Source of the DNA: Centroscyllium fabricii
Taxonomy: Eukaryota
NCBI GenBank assembly: GCA_051313645.2
Contig: JBNRSN020000003.1
Coordinates: forward strand, 484,530,001-484,594,000
DNA length: 64,000 nucleotides
Reading direction: 5' to 3'
Of the stretch, positions 6,548 to 45,695 are shown piece after piece. A program made the translations under genes and the position numbers. Under the pieces are notes generated by a model that did no database searches, had not been told where the DNA came from, and was given only the letters and a program-made list of their open reading frames with translations. The stretch's first letter is position 1, and each line of letters starts with the position of its first letter.

Positions 6548-6627
6548 GTAGTGAATAAGAGCCTGATTGTTCCAACTTACTACTTGACTCCGAGGACGTT
6601 ATTGAAGGTTACAATTTTATTCACTAC
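6548..6627 (+). promoter_or_regulatory. Self-complementary PBS pair of element A
   Basis: LTR 6548-6560 GTAGTGAATAAGA pairs with post-LTR 6615-6627 TTTTATTCACTAC (13 bp, one G:U). Confidence 0.8.
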
Positions 6628-6635
6628 TGTTAAAA

Positions 6636-9600
6636 ATGGATACCACGATGCTCAAGCCAGCAGTGTTCGAAGTGGATCCCCGATCATCAGGAGCATCGAA
6701 CGCCTTCTCACACTGGCGCAATGTACTCGAAGGGTACATCAGAGCCAATGCAGCGGTCATCGTGACCGAGGAGCAAAAACGGCGACTCCTCCACGCCCGG
6801 GTGGGCCCTCAGGTGTACTCGATGATAGTGGATGCCCCATCGTTCCAAGAGGCCATCAGGATTCTTGAGACGGAGTACAATCGGGCACCAAATGTGGTCC
6901 ACGCTAGGCATAGACTCGCCACCAGAAAGCAACAAACCGGTGAGTCAAGTGTGCAGTTCCTAAGAGCCCTTAGAATACTGGCGCGGGACTGTGACTGCAG
7001 AGCGCTAACGGCCCAAGTCCATGTAGACAGCCTTATCAGAGACGCCTACGTCACAGGCTTAAAATCGGACTATGCCAAGCAGAGACTGCTGGACCAGAAC
7101 GGCCAGGACTTACAGGCGACTACAGACTTGGGGCACGCGCTGGATAGCGCCTCAACGGACTTATCCTCATACTCAAATAACTATGAAGGCCCAGCCCCGC
7201 AATCTAGGACAGTGCCGGCGCAACGACCGGCAGAAGAACTAATCACAGCTGCCCACGCGAAAACGGCAGCCAAATGCTACTTCTGTGGACAATCTCAGCA
7301 CTCAAGACGCAGCTGCCCTGCTAGAGAAGCGACCTGCTCGAAATGCGACAAGAAAGGACATTATGCGAAGGTTTGTAAAAACACTAGCATAAAATCTAAA
7401 CTGGGTAGCGCCGCGTGTGGAACAGGGGAGCAGCCATATTGGGCTCACCCATCCCCCACTCAGTATCCCTCGTGGCAGCAGCAGCAACAGCGGCCATCTT
7501 GGACTCAGCCTCCACCTCCACAGTACACCACATGGCGGCAGCCATCTTGGGGAGCGAACTCGGAGGACTACTCTCCGGATCAAGACAACTCGGAGGACCC
7601 GGTGTTAGCATCAATGATTATAGACCAGAGGAAGACTCAACCGCTGGAGAAATCTATGATGCCGGTGGAAATCAACGGTGAAGAGGTGGTGTGCCTGTTC
7701 GACAGCGGGAGCACAGTAAGTTTTATACACCAAAGTACTGTAAAGCGCCTCTCCCTTAGAGTAATCCCTGCGCGCCAGAGAATATCTATGGCGTCCAAGT
7801 CGGAATTTGCTGACGTTACCGGGCGCTGCATTGTAACACTTAATGTCCAGGGCGCAATGTTTAACGATTTTAGTTTTTACGTGCTGCCGCAGCTCTGCGC
7901 CCCCCTACTCCTGGGACTGGATTTCTAATGCCACCTCCAGAGCGTTACGATGGCATTCGGCGGATCCCTCCCCTCACTCACGGTCAGAAACCGCGGCTCA
8001 ATGCGGTACCCCCAGCACACTACCTGTGGCCTCTCGACCCTTAAGGTTGCCCCTCCATCCCTCTTTGCCAACCTCACCCCAGACTGCAAGCCCGTCGCCA
8101 CCAAAAGTAGGCGCTACAGTGCTGGGGACATGGCATTTATAAAATCTGAGGTGCAGCGCCTCCTAAAAGAAGGGGTAATAGAGGCCAGTAATAGCCCCTG
8201 GAGAGCGCAGGTAGTGGTAGTAAAAACCGGAGAGAAGAACCGGATGGTTGTGGACTACAGCCAGACCATAAACCGGTTCACTCAACTAGATGCCTACCCC
8301 CTCCCCCGGATAGCGGACATGGTGAACCAAATCGCCCAATTTAAAGTGTACTCCACGATCGATCTTAAATCGGCTTATCACCAGCTTCCCATCCGCCCAG
8401 AGGACCGTCCTTATACAGCCTTCGAGGCTGACGGTCGCCTCTACCACTTCCTTAGGGTTCCGTTTGGCGTCACGAATGGGGTCTCGGTCTTCCAAAGGGA
8501 GATGGACCGAATGGTTGATCGGTACGGGCTGTGAGCCACTTTCCCGTATCTTGATAATGTGACCATCTGCGGCCATGATCAGCAGGACCATGACGCCAAC
8601 CTCCAAAAATTTATCCACACGGCCAAAACCCTGAACTTAACATACAATAAGGAGAAATGCGTATTTAGCACCGCCCGTCTGGCCATCCTCGGCAGCGTGG
8701 TGGAGAATGGAGTCATCGGTCCAGACCCGGACCGCATGCGCCCCCTCATGGAGCTCCCCCTCCCCCACTCCCCCAAAGCCCTTAAACGGTGTTTGGGATT
8801 TTTCGCCTATTATGCCCAGTGGGTCCCTAATTATGCGGACAAAGCTCGCCCACTACTTAAATCGACCTCTTTTCCCCTTTCTGCAGAAGCCAACTCGGCG
8901 TTCTGCAGAATTAAAAACGATATTGCCAAAGCCACGATGCACGCTATGGATGAGTCCGTCCCATTTCAGGTAGAGAGTGATGCATCTGACTTTGCCCTGG
9001 CCGCCACCCTTAACCAGGCGGGCAGACCCGTGGCCTTCTTTTCACGTACCCTCCAAGGCCCCGAAAGCCGCCACTCCTCAGTCGAAAAGGAGGCCCAGGC
9101 CATTGTTGAAGCAGTGCGGCATTGGAAGCACTACCTGGCCGGCAAACGTTTTACCCTACTGACTGACCAACGATCAGTCGCATTCATGTTCAACAACAAG
9201 GAACGGGGTAAAATAAAGAACGACAAGATATTAAGGTGGAGAATTGAACTATCTGCGTTCAATTACGATATCTTGTACCGGCCCGGGATATTTAACGAAC
9301 CCCCAGACGCCCTATCCCGCGGTACCTGTGCCAGCACACAGGCTGACCGTCTCCAAACCCTTCACAATGACCTCTGCCGCCCGGGGGTCACTAGGTTGGT
9401 TCACTTTGTGAAGTCCCGCAACCTCCCCTACTCCATCGAGGAGGTCAAGACTCTGACCAGCAACTGCCAGGTCTGCGCGGAGTGCAAGCCGCACTTCTAC
9501 CGGCCAGACCGGGCGCACTTGATCAAGGCCACTCGCCCCTTTGAATGACTCAGTGTCGATTTTAAAGGGCCCCTTCCCTCATCTAATAGGAATGTGTATT

Positions 9601-10589
9601 TCCTTAACGTTATAGATGAGTACTCCCGCTTCCCTTTCGCCATTCCCTGCCAGGACATGACCTCCGCCACCATCATCAAAGCCCTTAATAGCATCTTCTC
9701 CCTGTTCGGGTACCCCAACTATATCCATAGTGACCGGGGGGCCTCTTTTATGAGTGACGAGCTGCGTCAGTTTCTGCTAGCGAAAGGCATCGCGACTAGC
9801 AGGACTACCAGCTACAACCCCCGGGGGAACGGACAGGTAGAGAGGGAGAACGCCACGGTCTGGAAAGCCATCCAGTTAGCCCTACGGTCTAAAGGCCTCC
9901 CAGTCACCCGATGGCAGGACGTCCTCCCTGAAGCACTCCACTCTATCCGGTCCCTCCTGTGCACTGCCACTAATGCCACCCCTCACGAAAGACTTTTTGC
10001 CTTCCCTAGGAAGTCAGCTTCCGGGACCTCGCTACAATCGTGGCTACTATCTCCGGGACCGGTCCTGCTTCGGAAGCATGTAAGGGGACACAAGGCAGAT
10101 CCCCTAGTCGAAAGGGTCCACCTCCTGCACGCCAATCCCCAGTACGCATACATAGCGTACCCCGACGGGAGGGAGGACACCGTGTCCATAAAGGATCTAG
10201 CCCCAGCAGGAGTCCCCAAACCCAGCCCCGCCAGGCAGCCCGCACTTCCAAGAAGCCCCGCCCAGCAGCCCGCGCACCCAAAATGTCCTGTGACGCTCCA
10301 CATGCCGCCGAAGCCAAAGTACGCTCCCCGACACGTGGGCCCAGTACCCCAGTATGTCCACAAGGCACCTGCGAGCAGCACGACCCGGCCCCAAGCTTGG
10401 ATCCACAACGCGCGCCCCCTAGAGTCAGAGGACGAAGGAGAGAACGCGCCCCCTGCTGTCAGAATAAGGGCACCACCGCCACCCAGAAGTAACACAACAA
10501 CCACCACTATTCGACCGGCATCAATGGAGCAACCGACACAAACAGCCGCTCCACGACCACGAACACCACAGGCACCACCAGCGGTGTGA
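6636..10589 (+). pseudogene. Element A gag-pol, one frame with in-frame stops at 7926, 8532 and 9546
   Basis: Two CCHC-type knuckles, protease LFDSGS, RT (IDLKSAYHQ, YLDN), RNase H (ESDASD), integrase (HSDRG, GNGQVER); the four ORF pieces share one frame. Confidence 0.93.
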
Positions 10590-11605
10590 AGATCGACGCG
10601 GACAACTAAACCGCCTGAAAGACTCGGCTGGGGGAGTGTCACGGCGAAGATCGACGTGGACAACTAAACCGCCTGAAAGACTCAATCTATAGTCAAAAGA
10701 ACTTTGTTTTAAAGAAATAATTTTTTTTTCCTCTCTCACTTGTAATTATTAGTCTTTTCACCCCGCCGTACTTTCGTTTTAAAGAAGGGGTGAATGTGAT
10801 AAACGTGTATATCACTTGTATATAGTTAACTACCATGTATCACGATGTAACCTATACCTGTACTGTATTATACTATACTGTGAGATGATACCTGGGACAT
10901 GCCCAGGTTGGCTCCGCCCACGACTCCTCCCCCGCAGGAGGAGGTATATAAGTGACTGCCCCCATCCCCCATGCCATTCCCGGGGACAGTCAACTTGCTG
11001 GTGCATGTTCCAGGTGTAGTGAATAAGAGCCTGATTGTTCCTACTTACTACTCGACTCCGAGGACGTTATTGAAGGTTACACTTCTTTCCCACTGATCTT
11101 GTACACCCCAGGGATACAGTTAGCCCTCAAGGGATACAGTTAGCCCTCCTGCAGGCTGGTGCCCAGGTAAGACTTCTGCTGCAGCTGATTGAATGTTTAC
11201 CTTTGACTTTCAGCTGATAGTCAGCAAGCCACTGTGTCCATGCTAGGTTTCATCGGCGGGGTTTCAGGCTGGCAGGTTTTGGGTGGGGAACACCTGACAA
11301 TTCCAAGGGCCCCTTAAAATGGCATTATACATGCCAATTAAAGGTCCTTTATGAGCCTAACGACCATCCCCGCTGGTGGCGGACGGTGTGGTAATATGGT
11401 TTACCACCAATGTATATAGTTATCTGTACGGTAACACTGCATTGTATATAATTGCCTCCTGTGGTTGCCTCTTGCCTACCTGGGATGCCTCAGCCAGCTC
11501 CACCTCCGGGCTCCACCCACAGGCTGCCATATAAAGGGCACAGCCCTGCTGACCTCATGGCATTCCAGGGTCGGTTAGTAACAAGATAAGACCTGTGCTC
11601 CAGTT

Positions 11606-11684
11606 CTTAGTTAATAAAAGCCTCAGTTGTATTCTTAACTTCGTCTTGAGTATAATTGATCGTGCATCAATTTTATTAACTAAG
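11606..11684 (+). promoter_or_regulatory. Self-complementary PBS pair of element B
   Basis: LTR 11606-11619 CTTAGTTAATAAAA is the exact complement of post-LTR 11671-11684 TTTTATTAACTAAG. Confidence 0.85.
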
Positions 11685-11693
11685 TTTTCAGCG

Positions 11694-14600
11694 ATGGACA
11701 AAATATTGCGACCTAATTGCCTGGAGCTAAAACCGCAGGCACCGGCCACACCCCGGAACTTCACCCACTGGCTCAGGGTGTTTGAACTCTTTTTAACCGC
11801 CTCCGCAACAACCATCACCACAGACGGCGATAAATTGGCGGTCCTGCTATCCCGGGTCAGCACAGCTATCTACGGGCTAATCCAGAAGGAAACCACCTAC
11901 ACAGGCGCTCTGCAGATCCTCAAGAACCGTTTGGAGGCCCCGATGAATGAGGTCTATGCGAGACACCAACTGCTGTGCCGCAAGCAACAGGCCGGTGAGT
12001 TGATTGCGGACTATGTCGAGGAGCTGCGGGTAATCGGTCAGGGCTGCAACTGCCAGGCAGTCTCGGCCGAGGTATACCTGGATGAATTGATCTGCGACGC
12101 TCTTGTTGTGGGTGTAAGATCGAGTTACACCCGCCAGCGGCTGCTCGAACAGGAGACCCTCAACCTAAAAAGGGCAATAACTGTCGCAAACTACCTGGAC
12201 ATTGCACATCGGAACATGGAGGCCTATGAACATCCGACAACCTCGTGGGCAACACGGGTGCAGCCATCATGGATAGTAGGACAAAACCCCGCCACGCCTC
12301 CCCCGCTCACTGCCGCTGCCGCTGTATCCAGCGCCCGGAAATGTTACTTCTGTGGCTACTCAAAGCACCCCAGGCAGCGCTGCCTGGCGAAATCAGCAAC
12401 GTGCTCCAGCTGCAGGAAGAAGGGCACTACGCCAGCGTCTGTAAGGGCAGACCATCCCCCAACCCCAGCAGCGCCGCATGTGGCCCGGCGGAGCAGCCAT
12501 CTTGGAGCAGCCATCTTGCCCTGCCGCGTGGTGAGCAAGGGGGCGGCCATCTTACCCTGCTGCGTGGTGAGCAAGGGGGCGGCCATCTTGGGTCTCCCCT
12601 GGCCGCGTGCGATCCATGGGCGCTGCCATCTTGTAACCGGCTGCACACGCACGCCTCCCCCCCTCCTCACCAGATTCTTCGCTGGATCGCGACCTGCTGC
12701 TACCTCAACTGGCCTTCTTCACCCTGGACCAGTCTAGACCCCACCAGGTCGCCAGGTCCACAATGGACATTCAGGTAAATGGCCACACCACGAACTGTCT
12801 CTTTGACTCCGGGAGCACCGAAAGCTTCATCAATCCGGACACTGTACAGAGGCTTCCGCTCTCGGTCCACCCGGCGCACCAGTGGATCTCCCTGGCTTCT
12901 AAAACACAAACGGCAGCTACTGCATCGTTACGCTGACAGTGCGGGGCACTGTCTACGACAATTTTAAACTCCTCATCCTCCCCCATCTCTGCGCTGCCAT
13001 CCTACTCGGGCTAGATTTTCAGAGCCATCTCGACAGCGTCACCATGAAGTACGGTGGGCCCCTTCCCCCCCTCACTGTCTGTAGCCAGCAGTTTTTAAAA
13101 AGCCAGCCCCACACTGTGTGCAGCCTCTTGACCCTCAATATCACCCCTCCTCCACTGTTCACTAACCTCACCCCCGACTGCAAGCCCATAGCTACAAAGC
13201 ACTACAGCATGGGGGACAGGGTTATCATTAAATCAGAGGTCCAGCGGCTCCTGAAGGATGGGGTCATCGAGACCAGCAACAGCCCCTGGAGAGCCCAGGT
13301 TGTAGTCGTCAAGACCGACGAGAAACACCGCCTGGTCATCGACTACAGCCAAACCATAAACAGGTTTACGCAGCTGGACGCATACCCTCTACCCCGCATT
13401 TCTGACATGGTAAATCAAATTGTGCAGTATCGCGTATTTTCCATGATTGACTTGAAGTCTGCCTACCACCAGCTCCCCATCCACCCCGAGGACCGCCAGT
13501 TCACTGCCTTTGAGGCGAACGGCCGCCTCTACCACTTCCTCAGGCTCCCCTTCAGCGTCACCAACAGTGTGTCAGTCTTCCAGCGGAAAATGGACCGTAT
13601 GTTGGACCAGAACGGGCTGCTGGCTACATTTCCCTATTTAGATAATGTCACCATCTGCGGCCACGACACGCATGACCACGACACCAACCTGGCCAAATTT
13701 CTCAAGACCGCCCAACTCCTTAACCTCACTTATAATAAGGAGAAATGTGTCTTCCGCACCACCCGCCTCGCCATCCTGGGCTGTGTCGTGGAGAACGGGG
13801 TCATCGGCCCTCACCCTGAACGCATGCGCCCCCTCCTGGAGCCCCCCCTCCCACACAGTCCCAAGCCCCTGAGAAGGTGTTTGGGCTTTTTCTCGTACTA
13901 CGCCCAGTGGGTCCCCCAGTACGCTGACAAAGCCCGTCCCCTCATCAAATCAACCTCCTTCCCCCTGGCGGATGAGGCTCACGCAGCCTTCGAGAGCATC
14001 AAGTCCGACATCGCCAAGGCGACCATGCACGCCGTGGACGAATCCACCCCATTCCAGGTGGAAAGTGATGCCTCTGACTTCGCTCTGGCCGCCACCGTCA
14101 ACCAGGCAGGGAGACCGGTGGCCTTCTTTTCCCACACCCTCCAAGGCCCTGAAATCAGACACTCCTCGGTGGAAAAGGAAGCCCAGGCCATCGTGGAAGC
14201 GGTGCGGCACTGGAGACATTACCTGGCCGGTAGAAGATTCACCCTGCTCACTGACCAGCGGTCAGTGACTTTCATGTTTAATAACAAACAGCGGGGTAAG
14301 ATCAAAAACGATAAAATCCTGAGGTGGAGAATTGAGCTATCCACCTATAACTATGACATCTTGTACCGGCCCGGTAAACTCAATGAGCCCCCGGATGCTC
14401 TATCATGCGGAACCTGTGCCAGCACACAAGTGGATAGATTGCAATCTCTCCACAATGACCTCTCCCACCCGGGAGTCACCCGTCTTTTTCATTTTGTTAA
14501 GTCTCGTAACCTGCTCTACTCCATTTCGGAGGTCTGGGCCGTCACCAGGAGCTGCTCGACCTGCGCCAAGTGCAAACCGCACTTCTTTAGGCCAGACAGA

Positions 14601-15520
14601 GCTAACCTGATTAAGGCCACCTGCCCCTTTGAGCATCTGAGCGTCGACTTCAAGGGGCCCCGCCCCTCAACCAACCGAAACGTGTATTTCCTCACCGTCA
14701 TTGATGAGTACTCATGTTTCCCCTTCGCTATCCCTTGCCCAGACATGACCGCGGCCACGGCCATCAGGTGCCTGCACAGCATCTTCACCATGTTCGGTCT
14801 CCCCAACTACATCCACAGGGTTCCTCGTTCATGAGCGATGAGCTGCGCCAGTACCTGCTCGAAAAGGGGTTGAATGAGCAGGACCACCAGCTACAACCCC
14901 CAAGGTAACGGGCAGGTTGAGAGGGAGAATGGCACGGTCTGGAAGGCCACTCTCCTAGCCCTGCGGTCTAAGGGCCTTCCAGTCTCCCGCTGGCAAGAGG
15001 TCCTTCCTGACGCACTCCACTCCATTCGGTCGCTACTTTGCACCACGACCAACGCCACCCCTCATGAGCGGATGTTTTCCTTCCCCAGGAAGTCTGCCAT
15101 GGGGGCCTCGTTACCATCATGGCTGATGTCCCCATGGCCCGTCCTGCTCCGGAAACACGTGAGGGGCCATAAGACGGACCCCATGGTCGAAAAGGTACAG
15201 CTCCTCCACGTCAACCCCCAGTACGCTTACATGGAGTACCCTGACGGGCAGGAGGACACCGTCTCCATTAGAGACCTTGCACCCTCAGGTGCCCCTGAGA
15301 CCACCACCCACCCCCCCACTAACTCTCAATGCAACGTCATTACCACCTTTTTCTCTAGCCCCTGTAGACAGCATACCAGACACCCGGGATCCACCGACGA
15401 TGCACGACCTCCAACAAACTGCTGCCACACCACCGACAGCGCCTGAGGATCCCGCACAACAGCCGGAGCTGCAACGGTCACGAAGGGAGACCAGACCCCC
15501 TGAAAGACTTTTGTATTCTG
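11694..15520 (+). pseudogene. Element B gag-pol with frameshifts
   Basis: ATG at 11694; knuckle CYFCGYSKHPRQRC; protease LFDSGS; RT YLDN; RNase H and IN spread over ORFs 11595, 12245, 12939, 14874. Confidence 0.9.
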
Positions 15521-15999
15521 CCCCCGGCGGGACCACTTCACCCCACCGGACTCAATCTTAAGCAAGGGGTGAATGTGGTAATACGGTTTACCACCAATGT
15601 ATATAGTTATCTGTACTGTAACACTGCATTGTAGAAAGTTGCCTCCTGTGGTTGCCTCTTGCCTACCTGGGATGCCTCAGCCGGCTCCGCCTCCGCACTC
15701 CACCCACAGGCTGCTATATAAAGGTCACAGCCTTGCTGACCTCGTGGCATTCCAGGGTCGGTTAGTAACAAGATAAGACCTGTGCTCCAGTTCTTAGTTA
15801 ATAAAAGCCTCAGTTGTATTCTTAACTTTGTCTTGAGTATAATTGGTCGTGCATCAGGTGGGACTGAAGTGGGTCGATCGGACCCACCAGGCTGAAATTC
15901 ACAAGCTGGTGGGAAACCGGTGGGAGGGGTTGCAACCCCCGGTTTCCACAATTTTGCCTCCCCGGCCACCGAAAAAGCCGCCTGTCGGCTCAATGAACA

Positions 16000-16462
16000 T
16001 TGACCCCTTTATATCTGCCTTGTGCGACATTGCCTACCGGTCCCGGCAGTACCTCAATTTTAAAATTCATATCCTTGCTTTCAAATCCCTTCATGGCCTT
16101 GTCCCTCCTGATCTCTGTAAACTTCTCCAGATCCACAACCCTCCGAAATTACCTGCGCTCCTCTAATTCTGGCCTCCTGAGCATCCCTGATTTTAATCAC
16201 TCCACTATTGGTGGCTGTGCCTTCAGCTGCCTAGGCCCTAAGCTCTGGAATTCCCTCCCTAAACCTCTCTGCCTCTCTACCTCTCTCTCCTTTAAGACGC
16301 TCTTTAAATCCTACCTCTTTGACCAAGCATTTGGTCATCTGTCCTAATATCACATTATGTGGCTCGGTGTCAAATTTTGTTTGATAATCGCTCCTGTGAA
16401 GCTCCTTGTGACATTTTACTACATTACCAGTGCTATGTAAACACAGGTTGTTGTTGTTGTTT
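16000..16462 (+). mobile_element. L2 LINE 3' fragment
   Basis: FKIHILAFKSLHGL..., AFSCLGPKLWNSLP...FKTLFKSYLF and a (TGT)n tail. Confidence 0.8.
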
Positions 16463-17335: not shown

Positions 17336-17595
17336 ACTCTAGAGAGCCAAGAGAGCCCATAGAGTACAACAAAATGGTGTTGTACGACTCTGGAGAGCCA
17401 AGAGGGCCCATAGAGTACAACAAGATGGCATCTTACGACTCGAGAGAGCTAGGAGGGCCGAGTGAGTACAACAAAATGGTGTTGTACACAGAAGGGACTC
17501 TAGAGAGCCAAGAGGGCCCATAGAGTACAACAAAATGGCATCCTACGACTCGAGAGAGCTAGGAGGGCCGAGTAAGTACAACAAAATGGCGCCGT
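17336..17595 (+). repeat. About 51-bp tandem repeat (about 5 copies) in the gag of element E
   Basis: Repeated GACTC.AGAGAGC.A.GAGGGCC...GAGTACAACAAAATGG; translates as (DSREPRGPIEYNKMVLY)n-like. Confidence 0.85.
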
Positions 17596-19499: not shown

Positions 19500-19747
19500 T
19501 GTAGTGAACCATTTAGTGTAGTTCACACTGTGTTATTATTGTATATAGTTTGTGCTAATAAAGTTGTTCCTTTCTGTAAGCACCTGGACCAGCTGACCCC
19601 GCCTCCGGGTATGAGTATAAAGGAGGATGCTCCATCCACCTGACTCTCATTCCGGGCAGGACTCATCGTGGACCAGGTCTTGTTCTTAGCGAATAAAAGC
19701 CTTTGATTACGATCCACGAAAGACTGGTGTGATTGATTAGCGCATCA
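19500..19747 (+). mobile_element. Solo LTR of the A-D lineage
   Basis: TG..CA, TSD TGTGC, TATAAA and AATAAAAGCC; removing it restores ELTYV-PGTQMYIADALSR in the pol of element E. Confidence 0.92.
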
Positions 19748-20520: not shown

Positions 20521-20788
20521 TGTGGTAACCATCTATTACCAGTGTATATAGTTGATGTGCTCACCCTACCATTGTATATAGTTGATGTGCTTACCTTGAC
20601 ATTGTATGCTCGGCCAGGTCAGCCACACCCCTAACTCCTCCCCTCAGGTCGGAGCATATAGGTGAGGGCTGCCCTGCCCCCGCTCACTCTCGCCTTGAAC
20701 TCGACAGGAGACTAGCTCCATTGTAAGTGAATAAAAGCCTATAGTTTGGGTAACTACTCGCCTTTTGCATTTGATTGACGATACGTCA
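20521..20788 (+). mobile_element. Solo LTR of the A-D lineage (different family)
   Basis: TG..CA, TSD CCCAC, AATAAAAGCC; removing it restores [11 protein letters not shown] in the integrase of element E. Confidence 0.92.
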
Positions 20789-25300: not shown

Positions 25301-25588
25301 TGTGAAGTGTAACTACCCGAGAGACTCATCCGATCTCTCTAGGACCTTGAATCCACCTTACCCGAGCGGGCCCGCCCCCGTTCCCCTATTGGTCAGTTAG
25401 ATCAATGGTTACAGTCCCCCATTGGTCCATAGGGCTGTCACTCAACAGCCCCCACAGTGCTTTGCGTTTTCGCACCGTTTTCTCTCAGTTCTGCGTTGTT
25501 GTGATTGAATAAAGACTTATTGGATTTTGCTCCGCTGCTTTCCTCCGTTTCTCGATTATTTAAGAGTGGGAAACTTAGGTTCCCCACA
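22383..25588 (+). mobile_element. Gypsy element F (CsRn1/Kabuki-like), internally deleted
   Basis: 286-bp LTRs 22383-22668 and 25303-25588; PBS TGGTGACCCCGA (tRNA-Trp); 4-bp TSD CTAA/CCAA; the RT N-terminus (PLHIVP) joins directly to the IN zinc region, so RT core and RNase H are missing. Confidence 0.93.
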
Positions 25589-36096: not shown

Positions 36097-36396
36097 GATC
36101 CGTGGCTTGGGCCTCAGCTATTCACAATCTACATCAATAATTTGGATGAAGGGACCAATTGTAATATATCCAAGTTTGCTGATGATATAAAGCTGGGTGG
36201 GAGTTGTGAGGAGAATGCAAAGAGGCTTCAACAGGATATAGATAGGCTAAGTGAGTGGGCAAGAACATGTCAAATGGAATATAATGTGGAGAAATGTGAA
36301 ATTATCCACTTTGGTAGGAAAAATAGGCAAACAGGGTATTCTTTAAATGGTGAGAGATTGGGAAATTTTAGTGTTCAGAGGGACCTGGGTGTCCTT

Positions 36397-36700
36397 AAGA
36401 ACATAAGAACATAATAAATAGGAGCATGAGTAGGCCAATCGGCCCCTTGAGCCTGCTCCGCCATTCAATAAGATCATGGCTGATCTGATTCTAACAACCA
36501 ATCTACTATCACAGAAGCATCTCCTGAATCTAACCGAATTAGACACTCGAAATAGGAGCAGGTTCAGGCCACACAGTCCCTGGGCCCGCTCCACTACCCA
36601 CAGGGCCATGACTAATCTGAACCTAGACTCATATCCAAATTCCTGCCCGCTCCCCGTAACCCTTAATCCCTTTTACTTCTAGAATCCCTTTTACTTCTAA
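36397..36700 (-). mobile_element. Antisense CR1-tail fragments
   Basis: AAGAACAT repeats and two successive ATAGGAGCA..AGGCCA tail motifs interrupting the old CR1 RT. Confidence 0.6.
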
Positions 36701-39589
36701 TCCTTGTACATGAATCACTGAAAGTTGACATGCAGGTACAGCAAACAATTAGGGAAGCAAATGGTATGTTGGCCTTTATTACAAGAGGATTTGAGTATAA
36801 GAGTAAATATGTTTTACTGCAATTATATAGGGCCCTGGTGAGACCACACCTGGAGTGTTATGTACAGTTTTGGTCTCCTTACCTAAGGAAGGATATACTT
36901 GCCATAGCGGGAGTGCAACGAAGGTTCCCCAGACTGGTCCTGGGATGGGGGGATTGCCATTGAGGAGTTGACTAGTCCTATATCCTCTAGAGTTTAGAAG
37001 AATGAGAGGTGATTGTGACCGAAATAACAACCTCGTGGACGAGTAGTTAGGAAGAGAAACAATGCGGCTTTTATTAACTAAATAGTGGGACACGCACCAG
37101 CTAGTCGACTGTCCCCAGGTATGGCCGGGGGATGGGAGACGGCCATTTATATACCCCCTCCTGGGAGGGAGGAGTCGCGGGCGGAGCCAGCCTGGGCATG
37201 TCCCGGTAATCGTATAACAGGTTATATACAACATGGCATTAGGTACGATTACATAGATACAACGGGGTGATTATATACAATAGGAAACAGTGGGAAACAG
37301 TGGTTTATCACATTCACCCCTTTTTTAAAACAAAAGTCCGGCGGGGTCAATGCAAAAGTTCTTTTATTTATTTATTTTAATCATAAATTAAGTCGCTCCG
37401 GCGGCCTGGTGATCCTTGCCGAGCGTCGCACCGCTGGTGGTGTCCGCGGTCGCGGAGTGACCGGCCGAGTCGGTTGTAGCGATGGTGCTGATGCAGGTTG
37501 GCGAGCGGTGATCGTCGGTTGGTTTCTGGGTGGTGGTGCCCTTATACCGACAGTAGGAGGCGTGCTCTCTCCCTCGTCGTCTGACTCTAGGGGGCGTGCA
37601 CTGTGGAGCCATGCTGGAGGCCATGCCGTGCTGATCGCAGGTGCCGGGTGGACGTACTGGGGTACAGGGTCCTCGTGCCGGGGAGCGTACCTTGGCGCCG
37701 GTGGCTGGGGTGGCGTGGCTGGCCGCGATGGCCCGGATGGGGTGGCAGGCCGTCTTGGGTGCGCGGGCTGCTGGGCGGGGCGTCTTGGGTGCGCGGTCTG
37801 CTGGGCGGGCCTGGGTTTGGGGATCCCTGCTGGCGCCAGGTCCTTGATGGACACTGAGTCCTCCCTCCCGTCGGGGAACGCCACGTAGGCGTACTGGGGA
37901 TTGGCGTGCAGGAGGTGGACCCGTTCGACCAGGGGATCTGCCTTGTAGCCCCTCACGTGCTTCCGTAGTAGGACCGGTCCCGGGGATAGCAGCCACGATG
38001 GTAGCGAGGTCCCGGAAGCCGACTTCCTGGGGAAGGCAAAAAGTCGTTCGTGAGGGGTGGCATTAGTGGCCGTACACAGGAGGGACCGGATAGAGTGGAG
38101 CGCTTCAGGGAGGACGTCCTGCCATCGGGAGACTGGGAGGCTTTTAGACCGTAGGGCTAACAGGATGGCCTTCCAGACAGTGGCGTTCTCCCTCTCTACC
38201 TGCCCGTTCCCCGGGGGTTGTAGCTGGTAGTTCTACTAGTCGCGATGCCTTTGGCTAGCAGAAACTGACGCAGCTCGTCACTCATAAAGGATGCTCCCCG
38301 GTCACTATGAATATAGTTGGGATAGCCGAACAGGGAGAAGATGCTGTGGAGTGCTTTGATAACGGTGGCTGAGGTCATGTCCGGGCAGGGGATGGCAAAG
38401 GGGAAGCGGGAGTACTCATCGATTACATTAAGGAAGTACACGTTCCTGTTGGAGGAGTGAAGGGGCCCTTTGAAATCGACGCTGAGTCGTTCAAAGGGGC
38501 GAGTGGCCTTAATCAAGTGCGCCCGGTTTGGCCGGTAGAAGTGCGGCTTGCACTCCGCGCAGTCCTGGCAGTTGCTGGTCAGCGTCTTGACCTCCTCGAT
38601 GGAGTAGGGGAGGTTGCGGGACTTCACGAAGTGAACCAACCTGGTGACCCCCGGGTGGCAGAGGTCATTGTGTAAGGTTTGGAGGCGGTCTGTCTGTGCG
38701 CTGGCACAGGTACCGCGGGATAGGGCTTCTGGGGGATCGTTAAATTTCCCGAGCCGGTACAAGATATCATAGTTGAATGCGGAGAGTTCAATTCTCCACC
38801 TTAATATCTTGTCGTTCTTTATTTTACCCCGCTCTTTGTTGTTGAACATAAAAGCGACTGATCGTTGGTCAGTCAGCAGGGTAAAACGCTTGCCGGCCAG
38901 GTAGTGCTTCCAGTGACGCACTGCTTCAACGATGGCTTGGGCCTCCTTCTCGACTGAGGAGTGGCGGGTCTCGGGGCCCTGGAGGGTACGTGAGAATAAG
39001 GCCACGGGTCTGCCCGCCTGGTTAAGGGTGGCGGCCAGGGCAAAGTCCGATGCATCGCTCTCTACTTGAAATGGGACAGACTCGTCCACAGCGTGCATCG
39101 TGGCTTTTGCGATGTCATTCTTAATGCCGCAGAACGCCGAGCTGGCTTCTGCGGACAGGGGAAAAGAGGTAGATTTAAGCAGTGGGCGAGCTTTGTCCGC
39201 GTAATTGGGGACCCACTGGGCGTAATACGCAAAGAAACCCAAGCACCGTTTAAGGGCCTTGGGGGAGTGGGGGAGGGGAAGCTCCATGAGGGGGCGCATG
39301 CGGTCCGGGTCGGGACCGATGACCCCATTCTCCACAACACTGCCGAGGATGGCTAGGCGGGTGGTACTGAACACGCACTTGTGGTGATATTGGCTATAAC
39401 ACCAACTATGTGTATGTACATGCCTTAGGGCGTGTCTACTCTTGCCCAGCCAGACTTGGGAGACCTGTACCTGGAGAACCTCGGGTAGGCCACGCCTCTG
39501 ACCCTGGGGGTATAAAGGTCAGCACTCGTGGGTTCTGACCTCCTCTCTACTGTACTGTACTAACGATACCTGTGATCCCTTACGCTTGT

Positions 39590-39664
39590 TCTAAGTTTAT
39601 TAAAGCCTATGTTAACTCGCTCTCAGACTCGAGTAATTGATGGTATCAATTTAATAAACTTAGA
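39590..39664 (+). promoter_or_regulatory. Self-complementary PBS pair of element D
   Basis: 39590-39604 TCTAAGTTTATTAAA is the exact complement of 39650-39664 TTTAATAAACTTAGA. Confidence 0.85.
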
Positions 39665-39683
39665 TCGTCGCTAAAATCCAAAA

Positions 39684-42600
39684 ATGGACCGAATTCTGGC
39701 TGTCCCGATCTTGGAAATTGATGCGACTGCTCCCGATGCCGAACGCCGGTATAAACACTGGGAACAGCAGCTGAGGAGCTATATCGACGAAGTGAAAGAG
39801 ACTGCTTCAACTGATCAGCAGAAGAGCCGAATTCTACACTGCAGAATCAGTGCTGACCATTACCACCTCATCGAAGGGGAGTCGGATTACGAACAGGCCA
39901 TGAAGAAACTGAAAGAACAATTTGTGCCAGCAGCCAACGCTGTTCACTCAAGGCATGTGTTGACTCAGAGAGCCCAGAGCGCCGAGGAACCGGGCGCCAA
40001 ATTCGTGAAAGAAATTTGTGCGCTGACCCGAGATTGCGCCCCTGGCCCCCTGACGGCGGACGAACACTACAACGAACTGGCACTGGACGCTCTGGTAAGA
40101 GGGGTATACTCCCCATATATCAGGGCCCGACTGCTAGAACGGGATGAGCTAACGTTAAAAGAAGCAGCCTCCCTGATTGTAAATCTGGACAATGCAGATC
40201 GGAGATCCACCACGTATGGCCAACCAAGCGCGCCTACGTGGGCATCCCCAGCCCCAACTCCTACCCCAGCGCTAACGGCAGCGGCAGGAAGAAGCAGGCC
40301 TGAAACCAACCAAAAGTGTTTCTTTTGCGGAAAAGCTAGGCACTCTAGACTGCGCTGCCCAGCCAAAGATGCTACGTGCTCGGGGTGTGGAAAGAAGGGG
40401 CACTATGCCGCGATGTGCCGCGCAACAGGGCAGAAAAAGAAGGCAGCCCCCATCTGCAGCGGAGCGAGAGCGGCACCACGTTCCTACTACACGGAGGTAG
40501 ATGACCGCGAGGGAGCACCACGAGGCGGCGGCCATCTCGAGGCCACAGCTAGGAGGAGCGGCCATCTTAGTTCATCACCACGAGGCAGCGGCCATTTTGA
40601 GAGTCTTCGAATTGACTCCGACCCAGAATATTCGGATGAAAACGACTCATCAACCATGCTGGCGTCCATCACTTTGGACCAATCAAAACCCCATGAACTG
40701 CAGAAATCAATGATGGACGTCCAGGTAAACGGACAAAACTGTAACTGTTTATTTGATACGGGTAGTACTGATAGTTTTATTTCCCCCGAGACTGCTGACC
40801 GTCTTCGCCTGTCGATTCGCCCCTGTTTAAAACGCATCGCCTTGGCGGCGGACTCAGAATCGGCGCAGGCCGTGGGGTGTTGCGAAGTATCACTTGTAGT
40901 TCGCGGGGTAAAATACTGTAATTTTAAACTGTTTGTGTTACCCCACTTGTGCGCCCCAGTGTTATTGGGGCTCGATTTCCAGAGCCACCTGCAGTGTGTC
41001 ACCCTGGTATACGGCGGCCCTCTCCCACCCCTGACGGTCGAGTCGAGTACCCCCCGTGAGCGCCCGCTTTGTGGGCTCACCACTTTACGGATCTCACCCC
41101 CGAAACTGTTCGCGAACCTCACGCCGGACTGCGCACCGATTGCCTCAAAGAGCAGGCGGTATAGTGCTGCAGACAGGGCGTTTATTGGCACCGAGGTGAA
41201 GCGACTGTTGGCAGAGGGGGTGATTGAAGCCAGCCGCAGCCCCTGGAGGGCCCAAGTAGTAGTGGTAAAGACGGGGGAGAAGAACAGGATGGTGGTCGAC
41301 TACAGTCAGACCATAAACAGGTTTACACTCCTCGATGCGTACCCCCTTCCCCGGATCTCGGACATGGTAAATGAAATTGCCCAATACAAAGTCTATTCGA
41401 CTATAGACCTTAAAGCGGCATATCACCAGGTCCCAATCCCCAGAGAGGAGCGCCCCTACACCGCTTTCGAAGCGGATGGTCGCCTCTACCAGTTCCTTCG
41501 GGTTCCCTTCGGAGTAACGAACGGAGTGTCCGTCTTCCAGAGGGAAATGGATAGAATGGTAGACGAACACGGGCTCAGGGCCACCTTTCCCTATCTAGAT
41601 AATGTCACTATCTGCGGCCACTCGGACGAGGACCACGACGAGAACCTCGCTAAATTTTTGAAAACAGCCAAATCCCTGAATTTGACCTACAACAAAGAAA
41701 AATGTGTTTTCCGCACCAGACGCCTAGCTATTTTGGGCTGTGTGGTGGAAAACGGGTTAATCGGCCCGGACCCTGACCGAATGCGCCCGCTGATTGAGTA
41801 TCCCCTTCCCAAGACACCCAAAGCTCTAAAGCGGTGCATGGGGCTGTTCGCGTATTACGCGCAGTGGGTCCCGAAATTTGCGGACAAAGCCCGGCCTCTG
41901 ATGCGGGCCACTGTTTTTCCCCTGTCGGCAGCGGCACTAACGGCTTTTAAGCAACTTAAAGCCGATATAGTAAAAGCGGCAATGTCCGCCATTGATGAGG
42001 ACGTGCCTTTCCAAGTGGAGAGCGACGCGTCCGACTTCGCCCTGGCGGCGACCCTGAACCAAGCAGGCAGACCCGTTGCCTTCTTTTCCCGTACCCTCTC
42101 GGGCTCGGAAGCACGGCATTCCTCCGTGGAAAAAGAGGCCCAAGCCATTATCGAAGCGGTGCGCCACTGGAGACACTACCTGGCCGGTAGAAAATTTACC
42201 CTGCTCACCGATCAGAGGTCGGTAGCATTTATGTTTAGTAACACACAGCGGGGAAAAATTAAGAACGATAAGATCTTGAGGTGGAGGATCGAATTGTCCA
42301 CCTTTAATTATGATATTTTGTACAGGCCAGGTAGACTCAACGAGCCGTCTGATGCACTGTCCCGCGGGACCTGCGCCAGCGTGCAGGCGGGCAGACTGCA
42401 GGCTCTGCACAATAACCTCTGCCACCCGGGGGTCACCCGCTTCTATCATTTTATCAAAGCCCGCAATCTACCGTATAGTATTGCGGAGGTTAGGGAGATA
42501 GTCAGGGATTGTCCGGTCTGTGCGGAATGCAAGCCGCAGTTTTTCCGACCGGACAAGGCACACCTGATTAAGTCCTCTCGGCCCTTCGAACGCCTTAGTA

Positions 42601-43499
42601 TTGATTTTAAGGGCCCACTCCCGTCCACCGACAGGAATGTCTACTTCCTCACAGTCGTGGACGAATACTCCCGTTTCCCATTTGCGATACCCTGCACTGA
42701 TATGACTGCTGCCACAGTCATCAACGCCCTCGCCCCGATATTCGCAATATTCGGCTTCCCCTCATTCATACACTCTGACCGGGGGTCTGCCTTTATGAGC
42801 GACGAACTGCGCCAGTTCCTACTCGCGAGAGGAATCTCGTCAAGCAGGACAACGAGCTACAACCCCCGGGGCAATGGCCAAGTAGAGCGCGAGAATGGCA
42901 CTGTCTGGAAGGCGGTCCGCCTGGCACTCAGGTCCAGGGGCCTTCCAGCCTCACGCTGGCAGGCGGTTCTCTCGGACGCTCTACACGCCGTACGGTCGCT
43001 TCTTTGTACAGCGACCAACGCAACGCCGCACGAACGGATGTTTTCCTTCCCCAGGAAGTCCGTCTCGGGGATGTCGCTGCCGTCGTGGCTAGCCTCCCCG
43101 GGCCCAGTACTGTTGCGGCGCCATGTACGGCACTATAAGACCGACCCACTGGTCGACAGGGTACTCCTCCTCCATGCTAACCCGCAGTACGCCTATGTGG
43201 AGTTCCCTGATGGCAGGAAGGACACAGTCTCTATTAAAGACCTGGCGCCCGCAGGCGCCCCTGCGACCACAACTCCGCCCCCACCCCCCTTCCTCTCGTC
43301 GTGGGCCCAGCCGGCACCTACCACATCGCAGCCCGTGCCCAGCCCCCCACCGACCCATACCGCCGTATTCCCTGGTGACGCACTGCTAACGTATATTCCT
43401 TCGGCTTCCCCAGGTACCGATACCGAACGGCAGGACCAGCAGCTCAGACGGTCGTCGAGGGTGCGACGCCAGCCAGACCGCCTGGTCTGCTCAATGTGA
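39684..43499 (+). CDS. Intact Gypsy Gag-Pol polyprotein (Gag-PR-RT-RH-IN), 1271 aa
   Basis: Two knuckles, LFDTGS, YLDN, ESDASD, H..H..CPVC, DDE integrase; no stops. Confidence 0.95.
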   Translation: MDRILAVPILEIDATAPDAERRYKHWEQQLRSYIDEVKETASTDQQKSRILHCRISADHYHLIEGESDYEQAMKKLKEQFVPAANAVHSRHVLTQRAQSAEEPGAKFVKEICALTRDCAPGPLTADEHYNELALDALVRGVYSPYIRARLLERDELTLKEAASLIVNLDNADRRSTTYGQPSAPTWASPAPTPTPALTAAAGRSRPETNQKCFFCGKARHSRLRCPAKDATCSGCGKKGHYAAMCRATGQKKKAAPICSGARAAPRSYYTEVDDREGAPRGGGHLEATARRSGHLSSSPRGSGHFESLRIDSDPEYSDENDSSTMLASITLDQSKPHELQKSMMDVQVNGQNCNCLFDTGSTDSFISPETADRLRLSIRPCLKRIALAADSESAQAVGCCEVSLVVRGVKYCNFKLFVLPHLCAPVLLGLDFQSHLQCVTLVYGGPLPPLTVESSTPRERPLCGLTTLRISPPKLFANLTPDCAPIASKSRRYSAADRAFIGTEVKRLLAEGVIEASRSPWRAQVVVVKTGEKNRMVVDYSQTINRFTLLDAYPLPRISDMVNEIAQYKVYSTIDLKAAYHQVPIPREERPYTAFEADGRLYQFLRVPFGVTNGVSVFQREMDRMVDEHGLRATFPYLDNVTICGHSDEDHDENLAKFLKTAKSLNLTYNKEKCVFRTRRLAILGCVVENGLIGPDPDRMRPLIEYPLPKTPKALKRCMGLFAYYAQWVPKFADKARPLMRATVFPLSAAALTAFKQLKADIVKAAMSAIDEDVPFQVESDASDFALAATLNQAGRPVAFFSRTLSGSEARHSSVEKEAQAIIEAVRHWRHYLAGRKFTLLTDQRSVAFMFSNTQRGKIKNDKILRWRIELSTFNYDILYRPGRLNEPSDALSRGTCASVQAGRLQALHNNLCHPGVTRFYHFIKARNLPYSIAEVREIVRDCPVCAECKPQFFRPDKAHLIKSSRPFERLSIDFKGPLPSTDRNVYFLTVVDEYSRFPFAIPCTDMTAATVINALAPIFAIFGFPSFIHSDRGSAFMSDELRQFLLARGISSSRTTSYNPRGNGQVERENGTVWKAVRLALRSRGLPASRWQAVLSDALHAVRSLLCTATNATPHERMFSFPRKSVSGMSLPSWLASPGPVLLRRHVRHYKTDPLVDRVLLLHANPQYAYVEFPDGRKDTVSIKDLAPAGAPATTTPPPPPFLSSWAQPAPTTSQPVPSPPPTHTAVFPGDALLTYIPSASPGTDTERQDQQLRRSSRVRRQPDRLVCSM

Positions 43500-45609
43500 C
43501 CTGGCATGAACAGGCGGCCACAATTTTTTGGAACACCTTTGTAAATACTGTCTGTACATATGTTAGGTATTGTTTGTGCCCCCTCAGCACTTTTCTGTGT
43601 TATAGGTCAAATTAAGTGTTTTGGCGGTGTGGAGAAATTTCTGGAGGTTGGCGTCATGGTCCTGCTGATCGTGGCCGCAGATGGTCACGTTATCGAGGTA
43701 CGGGAAAGTGGCTCGCAGCCCGTACTGATCGACCATTCGGTCCATCTCCCTTTAGAAGACCGAGACCCCATTCGTGACGCCAAACAGGACCCTAAGGAAG
43801 TGATAGTGGCGACCGTCAGCCTCGAGGGCAGTATAGAGACGGTCCTCTGGGCGAATGGGAAGCTGGTGATAAGCGGACTTCAGGTCTATGGTGGAAAACA
43901 CCCTGAACTGCGCGATCTGGTTCACCTGTTCGGCTATCCGGGGAAGGGGGTAAGAGTTTAACAGGGTGAACCGGTTTATGGTCTGGCTGTAGTCAACGAC
44001 CATCCGGTTCTTCGCTCCGGTTTTGACCACCACTACCTGCGCCCTCCAGGGGCTATTACTGGCCTCGATAACCCCCTCCTTCAGGAGGCGCTGCACCTCG
44101 GACTTAATAAAGTCCATGTCCCCAGCACTGTAGCGCCTACTCTTGGTGGTGACTGGCTTGCAGTCTGGGGTGAGGTTGGCAAAGAGCGAGGGAGGGGCGA
44201 CCTTAAGGGTGGAGAGGCCACAGGTAGCGCGCCGGGGGTGCTGTGCTGAGCGCCGGTTGCTGACCGTGAGCGAGGGAAGGGGCCCACCGTACGCCATGGT
44301 AACACTCTGGAGGTGGCACTGAAAGTCTAGACCCAATAGTAATGGGGCGCAGAGCTGCGGCAGCACGAAAAAGCTAAAATTATCAAAGTGCACGCCCTGT
44401 ACAGTTAGGGCCACTGCGCAACGCCCGGAGACGTCCGCAGATTCTGATTTAGAAGCCATCGAAATTCTTTGGCTCGCAGGCATAACCTTAAGGGAGAGGC
44501 GCTCTACTGTCTCAGGATGAATAAAACTCACCGTGCTCCCACTGTCGAAAAGGCACTCCACGTCTTGTCCGTTCACTTGCACCGGCATCATTGATTTCCC
44601 AAGCGATTGGGTCTTGTTCTGGTCAAGAGTTACTGATGCTAAAATTGGATCCGCCGGTTCCTCTTGATCCGCAGAGTAGTCCTCCGGGGCCGGTCCCCAT
44701 GATGGCTGCCGCCATGTGGTGTACTGCGGAGGGGGTGGCTGGGTCCAATATGGCGACTGCTGCCACGCGGGGTGCTGAGTGGGGGATGGTTGAGTCCAAT
44801 ATGGCTGCTCCCATGTTCCACACGCGGCGCTGTCCGGTTTCGGTTTAGGGGCTGATGTGGTCGCCTTACAGACTTTCGCGTAATGTCCTTTTTTTCCACA
44901 TTTAGAACAGGCCGCTTCTCTTGCCGGGCAGCTACGTCTCGGATGCTGAGACTGCCTGCAGAAGTAACATTTAGCCGTCTTTGCGTGAGCGGCTGCGATC
45001 ATTTCTTCCGCCGGCCGTTGCACCGGCGTTGTCCAAGATGGTGGGGCTGGGCCCGCATAGTTGCCGGAATAAGATGAGAGGTTTAACGAGGCCACGTCCA
45101 GCACGTGTCCCAGATCCGTAGTTGCCTGCAGGTCAAGGCCGTTCTGCTCTAACAGCCTCTGTCTTATATAGTCCGACCTGAGGCCTGTCACATATGCGTC
45201 TCTAATGAGACTGTCCGCATGGATCGGGGCCGTTAGCGCTCTGCAGTCACAGGCCCGTGAAAGCACCCTCAGCGCTCTTAAAAATTCCACGCTGGACTCA
45301 CCGGGTTGCTGCTTCCTGGTGGCTAGGAGATGTCTGGCGTGGACGATATTGGGTGCCCGGTTGTACTCCGCCTTGAGGATCCTGATAGCATCCAAGTACG
45401 ATGATGCGTCCACGATCATGGAGTACACCTGAGGGCCCACCCGGGCGTTGAGGAGCCGTCGTTTGTCCTCTTCGGTCACGACGACCGCAGCGTTCGCTCT
45501 CAGGTATGCATCGAAAACACTGTACCAGTGTGTAAAAGTGTTTGATGCACCTGGTGTTCGGGGGTCCAGTTCAAACGTCGCTGGCTTGAGCATGGCTTCC
45601 ATCTTCAAA

Positions 45610-45695
45610 ATTTAGTTAATAAAATTGTGACCGAAATAACGACCTCGTGGACGAGTAGTTAGGAAGAGAAACAATGCGGCTTTTATTAACTAAAT
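45610..45695 (-). promoter_or_regulatory. Self-complementary PBS pair of element C
   Basis: Plus-strand 45610-45624 ATTTAGTTAATAAAA and 45681-45695 TTTTATTAACTAAAT form a perfect 15-bp inverted repeat. Confidence 0.85.

What the first reader, a model, noticed from the sequence alone, without database searches (positions are those of the whole stretch)
6548..45695. Gypsy lineage whose PBS is complementary to its own LTR poly(A)-signal region, with compensatory co-variation (tRNA-independent self-priming candidate)
Seen: none of elements A-D has a TGG-type tRNA PBS. One nt after the 5' LTR CA, each has a tract complementary to a site 45-55 nt upstream in its own LTR. A: GTAGTGAATAAGA/TTTTATTCACTAC (6548/6615). 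B: CTTAGTTAATAAAA/TTTTATTAACTAAG (11606/11671). C: ATTTAGTTAATAAAA, 15 bp (45681/45610). D: TCTAAGTTTATTAAA/TTTAATAAACTTAGA (39590/39650). The LTRs are otherwise divergent, yet the two arms change together; D's AATAAA-to-ATTAAA change is mirrored in its PBS. The LTR arm is always followed by GCC, also in both solo LTRs. Known: Tf1/sushi-type elements self-prime, using the first ~11 nt of the transcript and RNase H cleavage. Inference: this lineage folds back and is cut near A^GCC to make its primer, but from an internal site about 65-75 nt after the TATA box that overlaps the poly(A) hexamer. Self-primed Gypsy families are reported in repeat catalogues, so the lineage itself may be known; the geometry is what merits checking.
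Basis: partly seen in the sequence, partly recalled or inferred. Interest (0 to 1): 0.92.

Follow-up and report, generated by a model that had tools for sequence, protein, structure and literature searches.

The report
Self-priming Gypsy with internal primer
These jumping genes have no tRNA landing site; the spot where DNA copying must start pairs with a stretch of their own end repeat that seems to lie inside the transcript rather than at its very start, so they probably cut a primer out of their own RNA, a variant of the trick known from the yeast element Tf1.

Summary
Elements A-D are env-less Gypsy retrotransposons without a chromodomain. After the 5' LTR's CA plus one base comes an 11-nt core, extended to 13-15 bp, that pairs with their own LTR. 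The pairing covaries across 22 junctions here (99% paired, 26 double-change cells, 0/500 shuffles). It also holds in a held-out set (13 of 14 within one mismatch) and in 22 of 28 upstream regions of relatives from metagenome contigs. Three other Gypsy junctions carry ordinary TGG sites. Self-priming is about 90% likely.

The internal geometry is supported but not shown. The core starts 69-83 nt after the TATA box, whereas a chromodomain (sushi-type) family in the same genome starts its 11-nt self-primer 30 nt after its TATA-like box.

Corrections: the poly(A) hexamer overlap is not general (10 of 23 relatives lack it), GCC varies, and the cut site is uncertain by one base. No RNA data were available.

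Earlier notes of this scan reported what reads as the same signature in other genomes. I found no paper on it, but I recall (unverified) that Repbase lists self-primed animal Gypsy groups. Verdict: new variant of a known kind.

The parts
6327..6613 (+). Element A 5' LTR (TG..CA); TATA 6477, Inr-like A 6508
   Evidence: target duplication CTTCT
6548..6560 (+). A LTR arm (11-nt core 6550-6560), followed by GCC
6615..6627 (+). A self-complementary PBS, 1 nt after CA
6636..10589 (+). A gag-pol, one frame broken by three in-frame stops
10795..11081 (+). A 3' LTR, preceded by purine tract and AA
11387..11669 (+). Element B 5' LTR; TATA 11530, Inr-like A 11562
11606..11619 (+). B LTR arm (core 11609-11619)
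11671..11684 (+). B self-complementary PBS
11694..15446 (+). B gag-pol in three broken pieces; RT motif YLDN
15574..15856 (+). B 3' LTR (95% identical to the 5' LTR)
19500..19747 (+). Solo LTR E of the same lineage inside a Mag-like pol; core 19688-19698 then GCC; target duplication TGTGC
20521..20788 (+). Solo LTR F; core 20726-20736 then GCC; target duplication CCCAC
37014..37312 (-). Element C 3' LTR (not a solo LTR); target duplication ATCAC
39380..39648 (+). Element D 5' LTR, inserted into C in opposite orientation; TATA 39511
39590..39604 (+). D LTR arm (core 39594-39604), contains ATTAAA
39650..39664 (+). D self-complementary PBS
39684..43499 (+). D single gag-PR-RT-RH-IN frame; RT motif YLDN; no chromodomain or SH3_Tf2-1, no env. 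The purine tract and nearly all of the 3' LTR are missing in this copy (element ends at 43586)
45610..45624 (-). C self-complementary PBS
45681..45695 (-). C LTR arm (core 45691-45681)
45626..45924 (-). Element C 5' LTR; TATA 45765, Inr-like A 45734

Best explanation
A widespread animal clade of env-less, non-chromodomain Gypsy retrotransposons primes minus-strand DNA with its own RNA. Transcription starts about 30 nt after TATA, some 40-50 nt upstream of the arm (inferred). The 5' leader folds so that the arm pairs with the site after the LTR (pairing shown by covariation). A nuclease, most likely the element's RNase H as in Tf1, cuts at the 3' end of the arm, at or one base before the GCC (inferred). 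This leaves a capped fragment of about 50-60 nt whose last 11-15 nt are the primer. RT copies the 45-65 nt back to the cut and jumps to the 3' end using the roughly 15 nt between the cut site and the poly(A) site (inferred). In families whose poly(A) hexamer lies in the arm, the same helix would also hide the 5' poly(A) signal, a secondary benefit.
For: 1) No TGG in any clade junction, while three other Gypsy junctions have it and show no PBS-LTR pairing. 2) Fixed register, CA + 1 nt + 11-nt core, the same register as the in-host sushi-type self-primer. 3) Covariation. Own genome, 22 rows: 99.2% paired, 5 pairs and 26 cells changed on both sides, 0/500 shuffles. Metagenome relatives, 25 rows including 3 with no usable junction and 1 misaligned: 87%, 8 pairs, 49 cells. 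Held-out set, 18 rows: 91%, 21 cells. 4) Young copies keep it: 4,452 exact D junctions against 9,055 D LTR matches; 34 of 35 D rows have an unchanged arm and all 35 an unchanged PBS. 5) Internal position: TATA to core is 69-83 nt in six window LTRs, with an Inr-like A at +31 to +33 in four of them. In the sushi-type control the arm starts at TATA-like +30 and pairing stops at 11 nt; here pairing runs 1-8 nt further 5' in nearly all. 6) RNase H acidic residues are present in D. 7) One genomic copy ends 15 nt after the core in an A17 run, where a poly(A) site would be (single case, weak). Tf1 precedent: first 11 bases pair with the PBS and RNase H cuts between bases 11 and 12 (PMC7175516, passage).
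Against: No transcription start, 3' end or cut was observed. Most invertebrate-type relatives show no TATA 70-80 nt upstream by eye, and their cores begin in Inr-like TTAGT/TCAGT (consensus recalled); in L163 a TATAAT lies 26-31 nt before the arm, which fits Tf1 geometry. D lacks a clear Inr at +31. The leader upstream of the arm is not more structured than shuffles (z -0.9 to +0.8). Genomic DNA cannot tell the 5' from the 3' copy of R. Covariation counts include related families, and no tree-based count was made. One of 14 held-out junctions is degraded and 6 of 28 metagenome regions show no arm.
Confidence: 0.55

Rival explanations
1. Plain Tf1 geometry: the replicating RNA starts at the arm (a second, Inr-driven start), and the primer is simply the first 11-15 nt. 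The upstream TATA serves another transcript.
For: The core is 11 nt, the Tf1 length (PMC7175516), and begins at a near-invariant AG (22 of 22; 21 of 25 A-U), often in an Inr-like pyrimidine context. Tf2 uses alternative starts (PMC5341516, passages). L163 has TATAAT 26-31 nt upstream.
Against: Pairing extends a variable 1-8 nt 5' of AG with G-C changes, while it stops sharply in the in-host sushi control. AG is replaced by TG or TT with mirrored PBS in L092b and L202. TATA-Inr spacing is conserved 40-50 nt upstream across divergent families here.
Confidence: 0.2
2. The primer comes from another copy of R: the 3' end of the genomic RNA, or a short R-only transcript, pairs with the PBS and is trimmed or cut back to the duplex.
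For: If the arm is inside R it is present at both ends of the RNA (inference). The arm ends in AAA and the likely poly(A) site is only about 15 nt beyond it (single case). No genomic D fragment beginning at the GCC was found (0 matches, against 9,055 intact), though such captures may simply be too rare.
Against: The 5' copy is 45-65 nt from the PBS and would pair first (inference). The conserved purine-C-pyrimidine right after the arm suggests a cut signal rather than trimming. No precedent was found in the papers read.
Confidence: 0.15
3. The helix is regulatory (masks the 5' poly(A) signal or controls access to the start codon) and priming uses something else, such as a protein or another site.
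For: 13 of 23 relatives and all window LTRs have AATAAA or ATTAAA in the arm; the PBS side often runs up to the ATG.
Against: 10 of 23 relatives have no hexamer in the arm. A regulatory helix would not need a fixed register to the LTR end. No other primer site lies in the 0-20 nt before the ATG in most families.
Confidence: 0.07
4. A host RNA (tRNA half, snRNA end) is the primer and the LTR match is incidental.
For: Half-tRNA primers exist in Copia lineages (PMC6317226, passages). A full host small-RNA set could not be screened: the tRNA search returned only 63 top places and they were not compared with the tracts.
Against: More than ten different 11-mers in this one genome each track their own LTR, including mirrored transversions between near-identical families (L080 versus L122).
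Confidence: 0.03

Closest known systems
Tf1/Tf2 (S. pombe), Tj1 and the Tf1/sushi group of chromoviruses (PMC7175516, PMC10085805, PMC4600332; passages read)
   Same: No tRNA site; about 11-nt PBS complementary to own LTR RNA; Ty3/Gypsy domain order; a sushi-type family in this genome uses the same CA + 1 + 11 register.
   Different: No chromodomain or SH3_Tf2-1. Integrase only 31% identical to the in-host chromovirus. Arm 69-83 nt after TATA rather than 30. Pairing extends 5' of the core. The PBS sits mostly 0-20 nt from the ATG, leaving no room for the pretzel's downstream duplex. RT often reads Y-x-D-N.
Predicted self-primed plant lineages: Tcn1 (Gypsy) and TAR/Houba/Osr-1 (Copia) (PMC6317226, passages)
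   Same: Self-priming inferred from LTR-PBS complementarity; shows that the trait arose more than once.
   Different: Plant lineages; TAR is Copia and Tcn1 a chromovirus. The passages read mention no animal non-chromovirus case.
Repbase self-primed animal Gypsy groups (names 'Selfy' and 'Ronin' recalled from memory, not from any call)
   Same: As recalled: animal Gypsy families whose PBS pairs with their own LTR, outside Tf1/sushi. This clade may well be one of them.
   Different: Could not be checked: 'Selfy' gave 0 papers, no listed paper held 'Ronin', and no Repbase library is available here.
tRNA-primed Mag-like and CsRn1-like Gypsy elements in the same genome (clade labels from domain content and recalled motifs)
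   Same: Mag-type gag is weakly similar (27% at L083); same genome; 5-bp duplication as recalled for Mag.
   Different: They have TGG primer sites and no PBS-LTR pairing. RT-RH identity to D is only 25% and 31%.

Membership tests
Ty3/Gypsy LTR retrotransposon | Two TG..CA LTRs, target duplication, purine tract, gag-PR-RT-RH-IN order | tested here: met
   best solved relative is Ty3 RT
Tf1/sushi group | PBS complementary to own LTR instead of a tRNA | tested here: met
Tf1/sushi group | Chromodomain at the integrase C-terminus (usual in chromoviruses, PMC10085805) | tested here: not met
   No Chromo or SH3_Tf2-1 hit in D or in 10 clade proteins, 8 of them with integrase; D's C-terminus read directly
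Tf1/sushi group | Self-primer is the 5' end of the transcript | tested here: inconclusive
   Promoter spacing points to an internal site (69-83 nt versus 30 nt in the in-host control), but no start site was mapped
Tf1/sushi group | Three-duplex 'pretzel' around the PBS | tested here: inconclusive
   The consensus fold gives the arm helix and a weak upstream hairpin but no helix inside the loop; inner stems appear in single folds and differ between families
Tf1/sushi group | Monophyly with chromoviruses in an RT-IN tree | not tested
   No tree could be built; only pairwise identities of 25-31% to three other clades
Tf1/sushi group | RNase H cuts the RNA duplex to release the primer | not testable with these tools
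   Catalytic residues present; activity untested
tRNA-primed Gypsy clades (Mag, CsRn1) | TGG-type PBS next to the 5' LTR | tested here: not met
   No TGG after CA in any row of alignments A4, A10 or A5; present in 3 of 3 control junctions
Repbase self-primed Gypsy groups (recalled) | Sequence match to catalogued families | not testable with these tools
   No such library; searches found no description

The most novel reading that the evidence does not exclude
An independent origin of self-priming in a large animal non-chromovirus Gypsy clade, in which an internal cut releases a capped primer of about 55 nt. One cut would make the primer, uncap the genomic RNA (ending its use as mRNA) and, in this host's families, remove the promoter-proximal poly(A) signal. 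Part of the clade does this with an RT whose third catalytic aspartate is asparagine. The mechanism would be undescribed even if the families are catalogued.
Probability: 0.4. Interest if true: 0.75.

Novelty: new variant of a known kind. Interest (0 to 1): 0.6.

Why it matters
Self-priming has been demonstrated for Tf1 and assumed for its chromovirus kin. A second, very abundant animal lineage would show that tRNA independence evolved again in Gypsy. Family D alone has about 4,500 near-identical copies here, and gag relatives are named from catshark, sea cucumber and spider. An internal primer would need a different cleavage geometry and a different stop for plus-strand synthesis than Tf1. 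Such elements would also lack the PBS targeted by 3' tRNA fragments (inference). The genome holds a sushi-type family as a built-in control, so ordinary RNA-end mapping from host tissue can settle the geometry.

Tried and rejected
- RNA evidence: no RNA holder listed. Laying four contig runs showed only presence in three DNA-type runs and nothing on starts or ends.
- Splice-junction primer, a lead from earlier notes on BEL/Pao: the invariant AG looks like an acceptor, but it is often AAG or GAG, and by eye the unspliced sequence pairs better than the spliced form in L007 and L008. Rejected.
- Structured, tRNA-like 5' part of the primer: no significant folding in 7 of 7 segments; only weak covariation in the consensus fold.
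- Captured strong-stop fragments starting at GCC: 0 in family D; uninformative.
- Poly(A)-ended copies: 3 pattern matches genome-wide. One is a clade element, one is not an LTR, one was not examined.
- My first guess at the sushi-type PBS found 0 matches; the neutral look gave the real one, 28 of the first 100 listed LTR ends, 20 with an exact 11-mer.
- Host tRNA screen: 63 places, loci mostly from two arrays, not compared. No tRNA or Rfam match in the window.
- Y-x-D-N as a clade marker: seen in D, B, P0002, P0004 and the majority of alignment A3, but the majority of alignment A13 reads YLDD, so it is not diagnostic.
- Viral contigs gave one weak zinc-knuckle hit. The protein Atlas gave no result. 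No tree was built.
- Four primary Tf1 papers were not held (PMC109269, PMC230564, PMC1563812, PMC6388632).
Full report
OBSERVATION. Elements A (6327-11081), B (11387-15856) and C (minus strand, 45924-37014) have paired LTRs of 99, 95 and 99% identity. D (39380-43586) is nested in C. A, C, D and two solo LTRs (19500-19747, 20521-20788) have 5-bp target duplications. All encode, whole or broken, a single gag-PR-RT-RH-IN frame with no env and no chromodomain. In each, the LTR's CA is followed by one base and then 13-15 nt complementary to a tract 45-55 nt upstream in the LTR, and that tract is followed by GCC. The window is part of a 7.2-Gb animal genome; the best gag relative with a name is from a catshark.

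CONTROLS. Two other Gypsy elements in the window and one Mag-like element in a fetched stretch have TGG primer sites, and none pairs its PBS with its LTR (3 of 3). Two LTR ends without internal sequence show no pairing with their flank. Global folding of the 146-nt leaders is significant or nearly so only for B and D, so the case rests on register and covariation, not on folding energy.

COVARIATION. I collected junctions in three ways. (1) A gag protein search over loci L001-L088, blind to the hairpin, gave 17 further clade starts with upstream sequence. Sixteen show the arm; in one the arm is split by a D insertion. A 5'-truncated copy and the Mag-like control were set aside. With the four window elements and two more rows, the 11-pair helix is 99.2% paired over 242 cells, with 5 pairs and 26 cells changed on both sides, 0 of 500 shuffles as high, and 30-58% in slid registers. 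RNAalifold predicts the helix unprompted on 15 of my junctions. (2) A sequence-only profile run over 40 further 10-kb stretches gave 35 matches. I aligned the 17 that reach past the LTR end; 14 show both arms: 11 perfect cores, 2 with one mismatch, 1 degraded. This profile favours PBS sequences like the training set. (3) A metagenome scan kept 80 loci. I examined 28 upstream regions; 22 show the arm, and L180 is a 23rd. Of the six misses, two have the arm split by an insertion, one has a deletion in the arm, two show no junction, and one has too little upstream DNA. On 25 rows, misses included, 87% of cells pair and 49 change on both sides. These 23 loci amount to about 17 families, and related rows inflate all cell counts. 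In young copies the match is kept: 4,452 exact D junctions against 9,055 D LTR matches, and 34 of 35 D rows unchanged in the arm. A host RNA cannot follow so many different 11-mers, each matching its own LTR.

ANATOMY. The constant unit is an 11-nt core, AG-N6-AAA in most, opposite TTT-N6-CT at a fixed distance from the LTR end. Pairing continues 1-8 nt further 5' in nearly all, often up to the start codon. AG is not absolute (TG and TT variants are mirrored). The three bases after the core vary (GCC, ACC, GCT, ACT, CTT). The poly(A) hexamer lies in the arm in all window LTRs and 13 of 23 relatives, but not in the other 10, and in four of those it lies downstream. The purine tract is followed by AA-TG, which leaves the exact primer end uncertain by one base.

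GEOMETRY. In six window LTRs the first T of TATA lies 69-83 nt before the core (A 73, B 79, C 74, D 83, E 72, F 69). A, B, C and E have an Inr-like CATT/CATA with its A at +31 to +33 (promoter consensus recalled), and the spacing recurs in other families. The best test available was an in-host control. A chromodomain-bearing family has CA + 1 nt + an 11-nt PBS in 28 of the first 100 LTR ends listed. Its LTR complement starts 30 nt after a TATA-like box and pairing stops at 11 nt. [quoted passage not shown] The clade studied here differs on both counts, which favours an internal site. Against this, most invertebrate-type relatives show no such TATA by eye, their cores start in Inr-like context, one has TATAAT 26-31 nt upstream, and no RNA end was observed.

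MECHANISM. Shown: pairing, fixed register, covariation, absence of a tRNA site, intact RNase H residues in D. Inferred: a start 40-50 nt upstream of the core, a cut at the arm's 3' end by RNase H, a capped primer of 50-60 nt, and strand transfer through about 15 nt of R. The poly(A) position rests on one genomic copy. I put self-priming of some form at 0.9, split as internal 5' cut 0.55, Tf1 geometry 0.2 and a 3'-end or trans primer 0.15. A purely regulatory helix gets 0.07 and a host RNA 0.03.

KINSHIP. D's RT-RH is 31% identical to the CsRn1-like and 25% to the Mag-like element; its integrase is 31% identical to the in-host chromovirus. Ten clade proteins lack chromodomain and SH3_Tf2-1 hits. 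The gag profile finds 450 protein clusters at E up to 1e-30, with named members in catshark, sea cucumber and spider. It works like Tf1 but fails the chromodomain test, so I do not file it under Tf1/sushi. No tree was built, so independent origin is inferred, not shown.

LITERATURE. Passages read: PMC3601003, PMC4600332, PMC5341516, PMC10085805, PMC6317226, PMC554778, PMC2864245, PMC7175516. Abstract and outline only: PMC2148107. They tie self-priming to Tf1/sushi, Tcn1 and plant Copia TAR. Searches listed no paper on an animal non-chromovirus case, judged from listings and the passages above. The library lacks most subscription journals and Repbase, four primary Tf1 papers were not held, and I opened no supplements; those of PMC6317226 and PMC3601003 list elements and may bear on this. 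I recall, without any call, that Repbase names self-primed animal Gypsy groups, so the lineage may be catalogued. Four earlier notes of this scan describe what reads as the same signature in other genomes; they are not independent evidence, and a look-up by this gag sequence found none.

VERDICT. A real, strongly supported self-priming signature in a large animal Gypsy clade: a new variant of a known kind. The internal-primer geometry is the part that may be new, and it is directly testable by RNA-end mapping. Interest 0.6.

Noticed in passing
window:41001-43499 (D RT); also B, P0002, P0004: The RT motif reads YLDN, YVDN or YIDN where Ty3 has YLDD, in a family with thousands of recent copies. 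In Ty1 the same change keeps polymerisation in vitro but blocks transposition, and RNase H suppressors partly restore it (PMC2148107, abstract). Other clade members keep YLDD. No paper hit for YLDN with retrotransposon; YVDN is noted for C. elegans Cer7-12 (PMC554778, passage).
   Followed up: partly
window:39380-43586: The window's D copy has a 5-bp target duplication but lacks the purine tract and all but the last three bases of the 3' LTR; six other D copies are whole there.
   Followed up: partly
L214:1958-2295, L210: A chromodomain (sushi-type) family in the same genome with a classic 11-nt self-primer starting 30 nt after a TATA-like box; 173 exact LTR-end matches.
   Followed up: yes
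L253:240-530 and L252:1280-1545: A clade element with a full 5' LTR whose 3' LTR stops 15 nt after the arm in an A17 run, without a matching target duplication: possibly an aberrant cDNA primed at the poly(A) tail, or a later deletion.
   Followed up: partly
window 3' LTR junctions 10785-10797, 15564-15576, 37310-37322; ten metagenome loci: The purine tract is followed by a conserved AA before TG, and the right end reads CA-AT, CA-GT or CA-TT. A retrovirus-like 2-nt overhang would move the primer's 3' end one base 5' of A^GCC.
   Followed up: partly
L092:8380-8570 (-), L091:2710-2898 (-): A subfamily related to solo LTR E keeps a 15-bp arm-PBS match with TG/CA in place of AG/CT but shows no ordinary gag start after it; possibly non-autonomous.
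   Followed up: no
L016, L045, L026, L042, L250, L251; window C and D: Elements of this lineage often sit inside one another, twice within or beside the LTR arm region. Not tested against chance.
   Followed up: no
window:49895-54049 and 22383-25588: Two CsRn1-like Gypsy elements with ordinary TGG primer sites; the first has an open 1277-aa frame with DUF7041.
   Followed up: yes
window:31428-35326: A LINE with a GDSL-esterase ORF1 and an endonuclease-RT ORF2, typical of CR1/L2-type elements (family label recalled).
   Followed up: no
L186 and L188:230-370: A short DNA-transposon-like element appears to have inserted into the arm of a clade LTR, leaving half the arm beside an intact PBS.
   Followed up: partly
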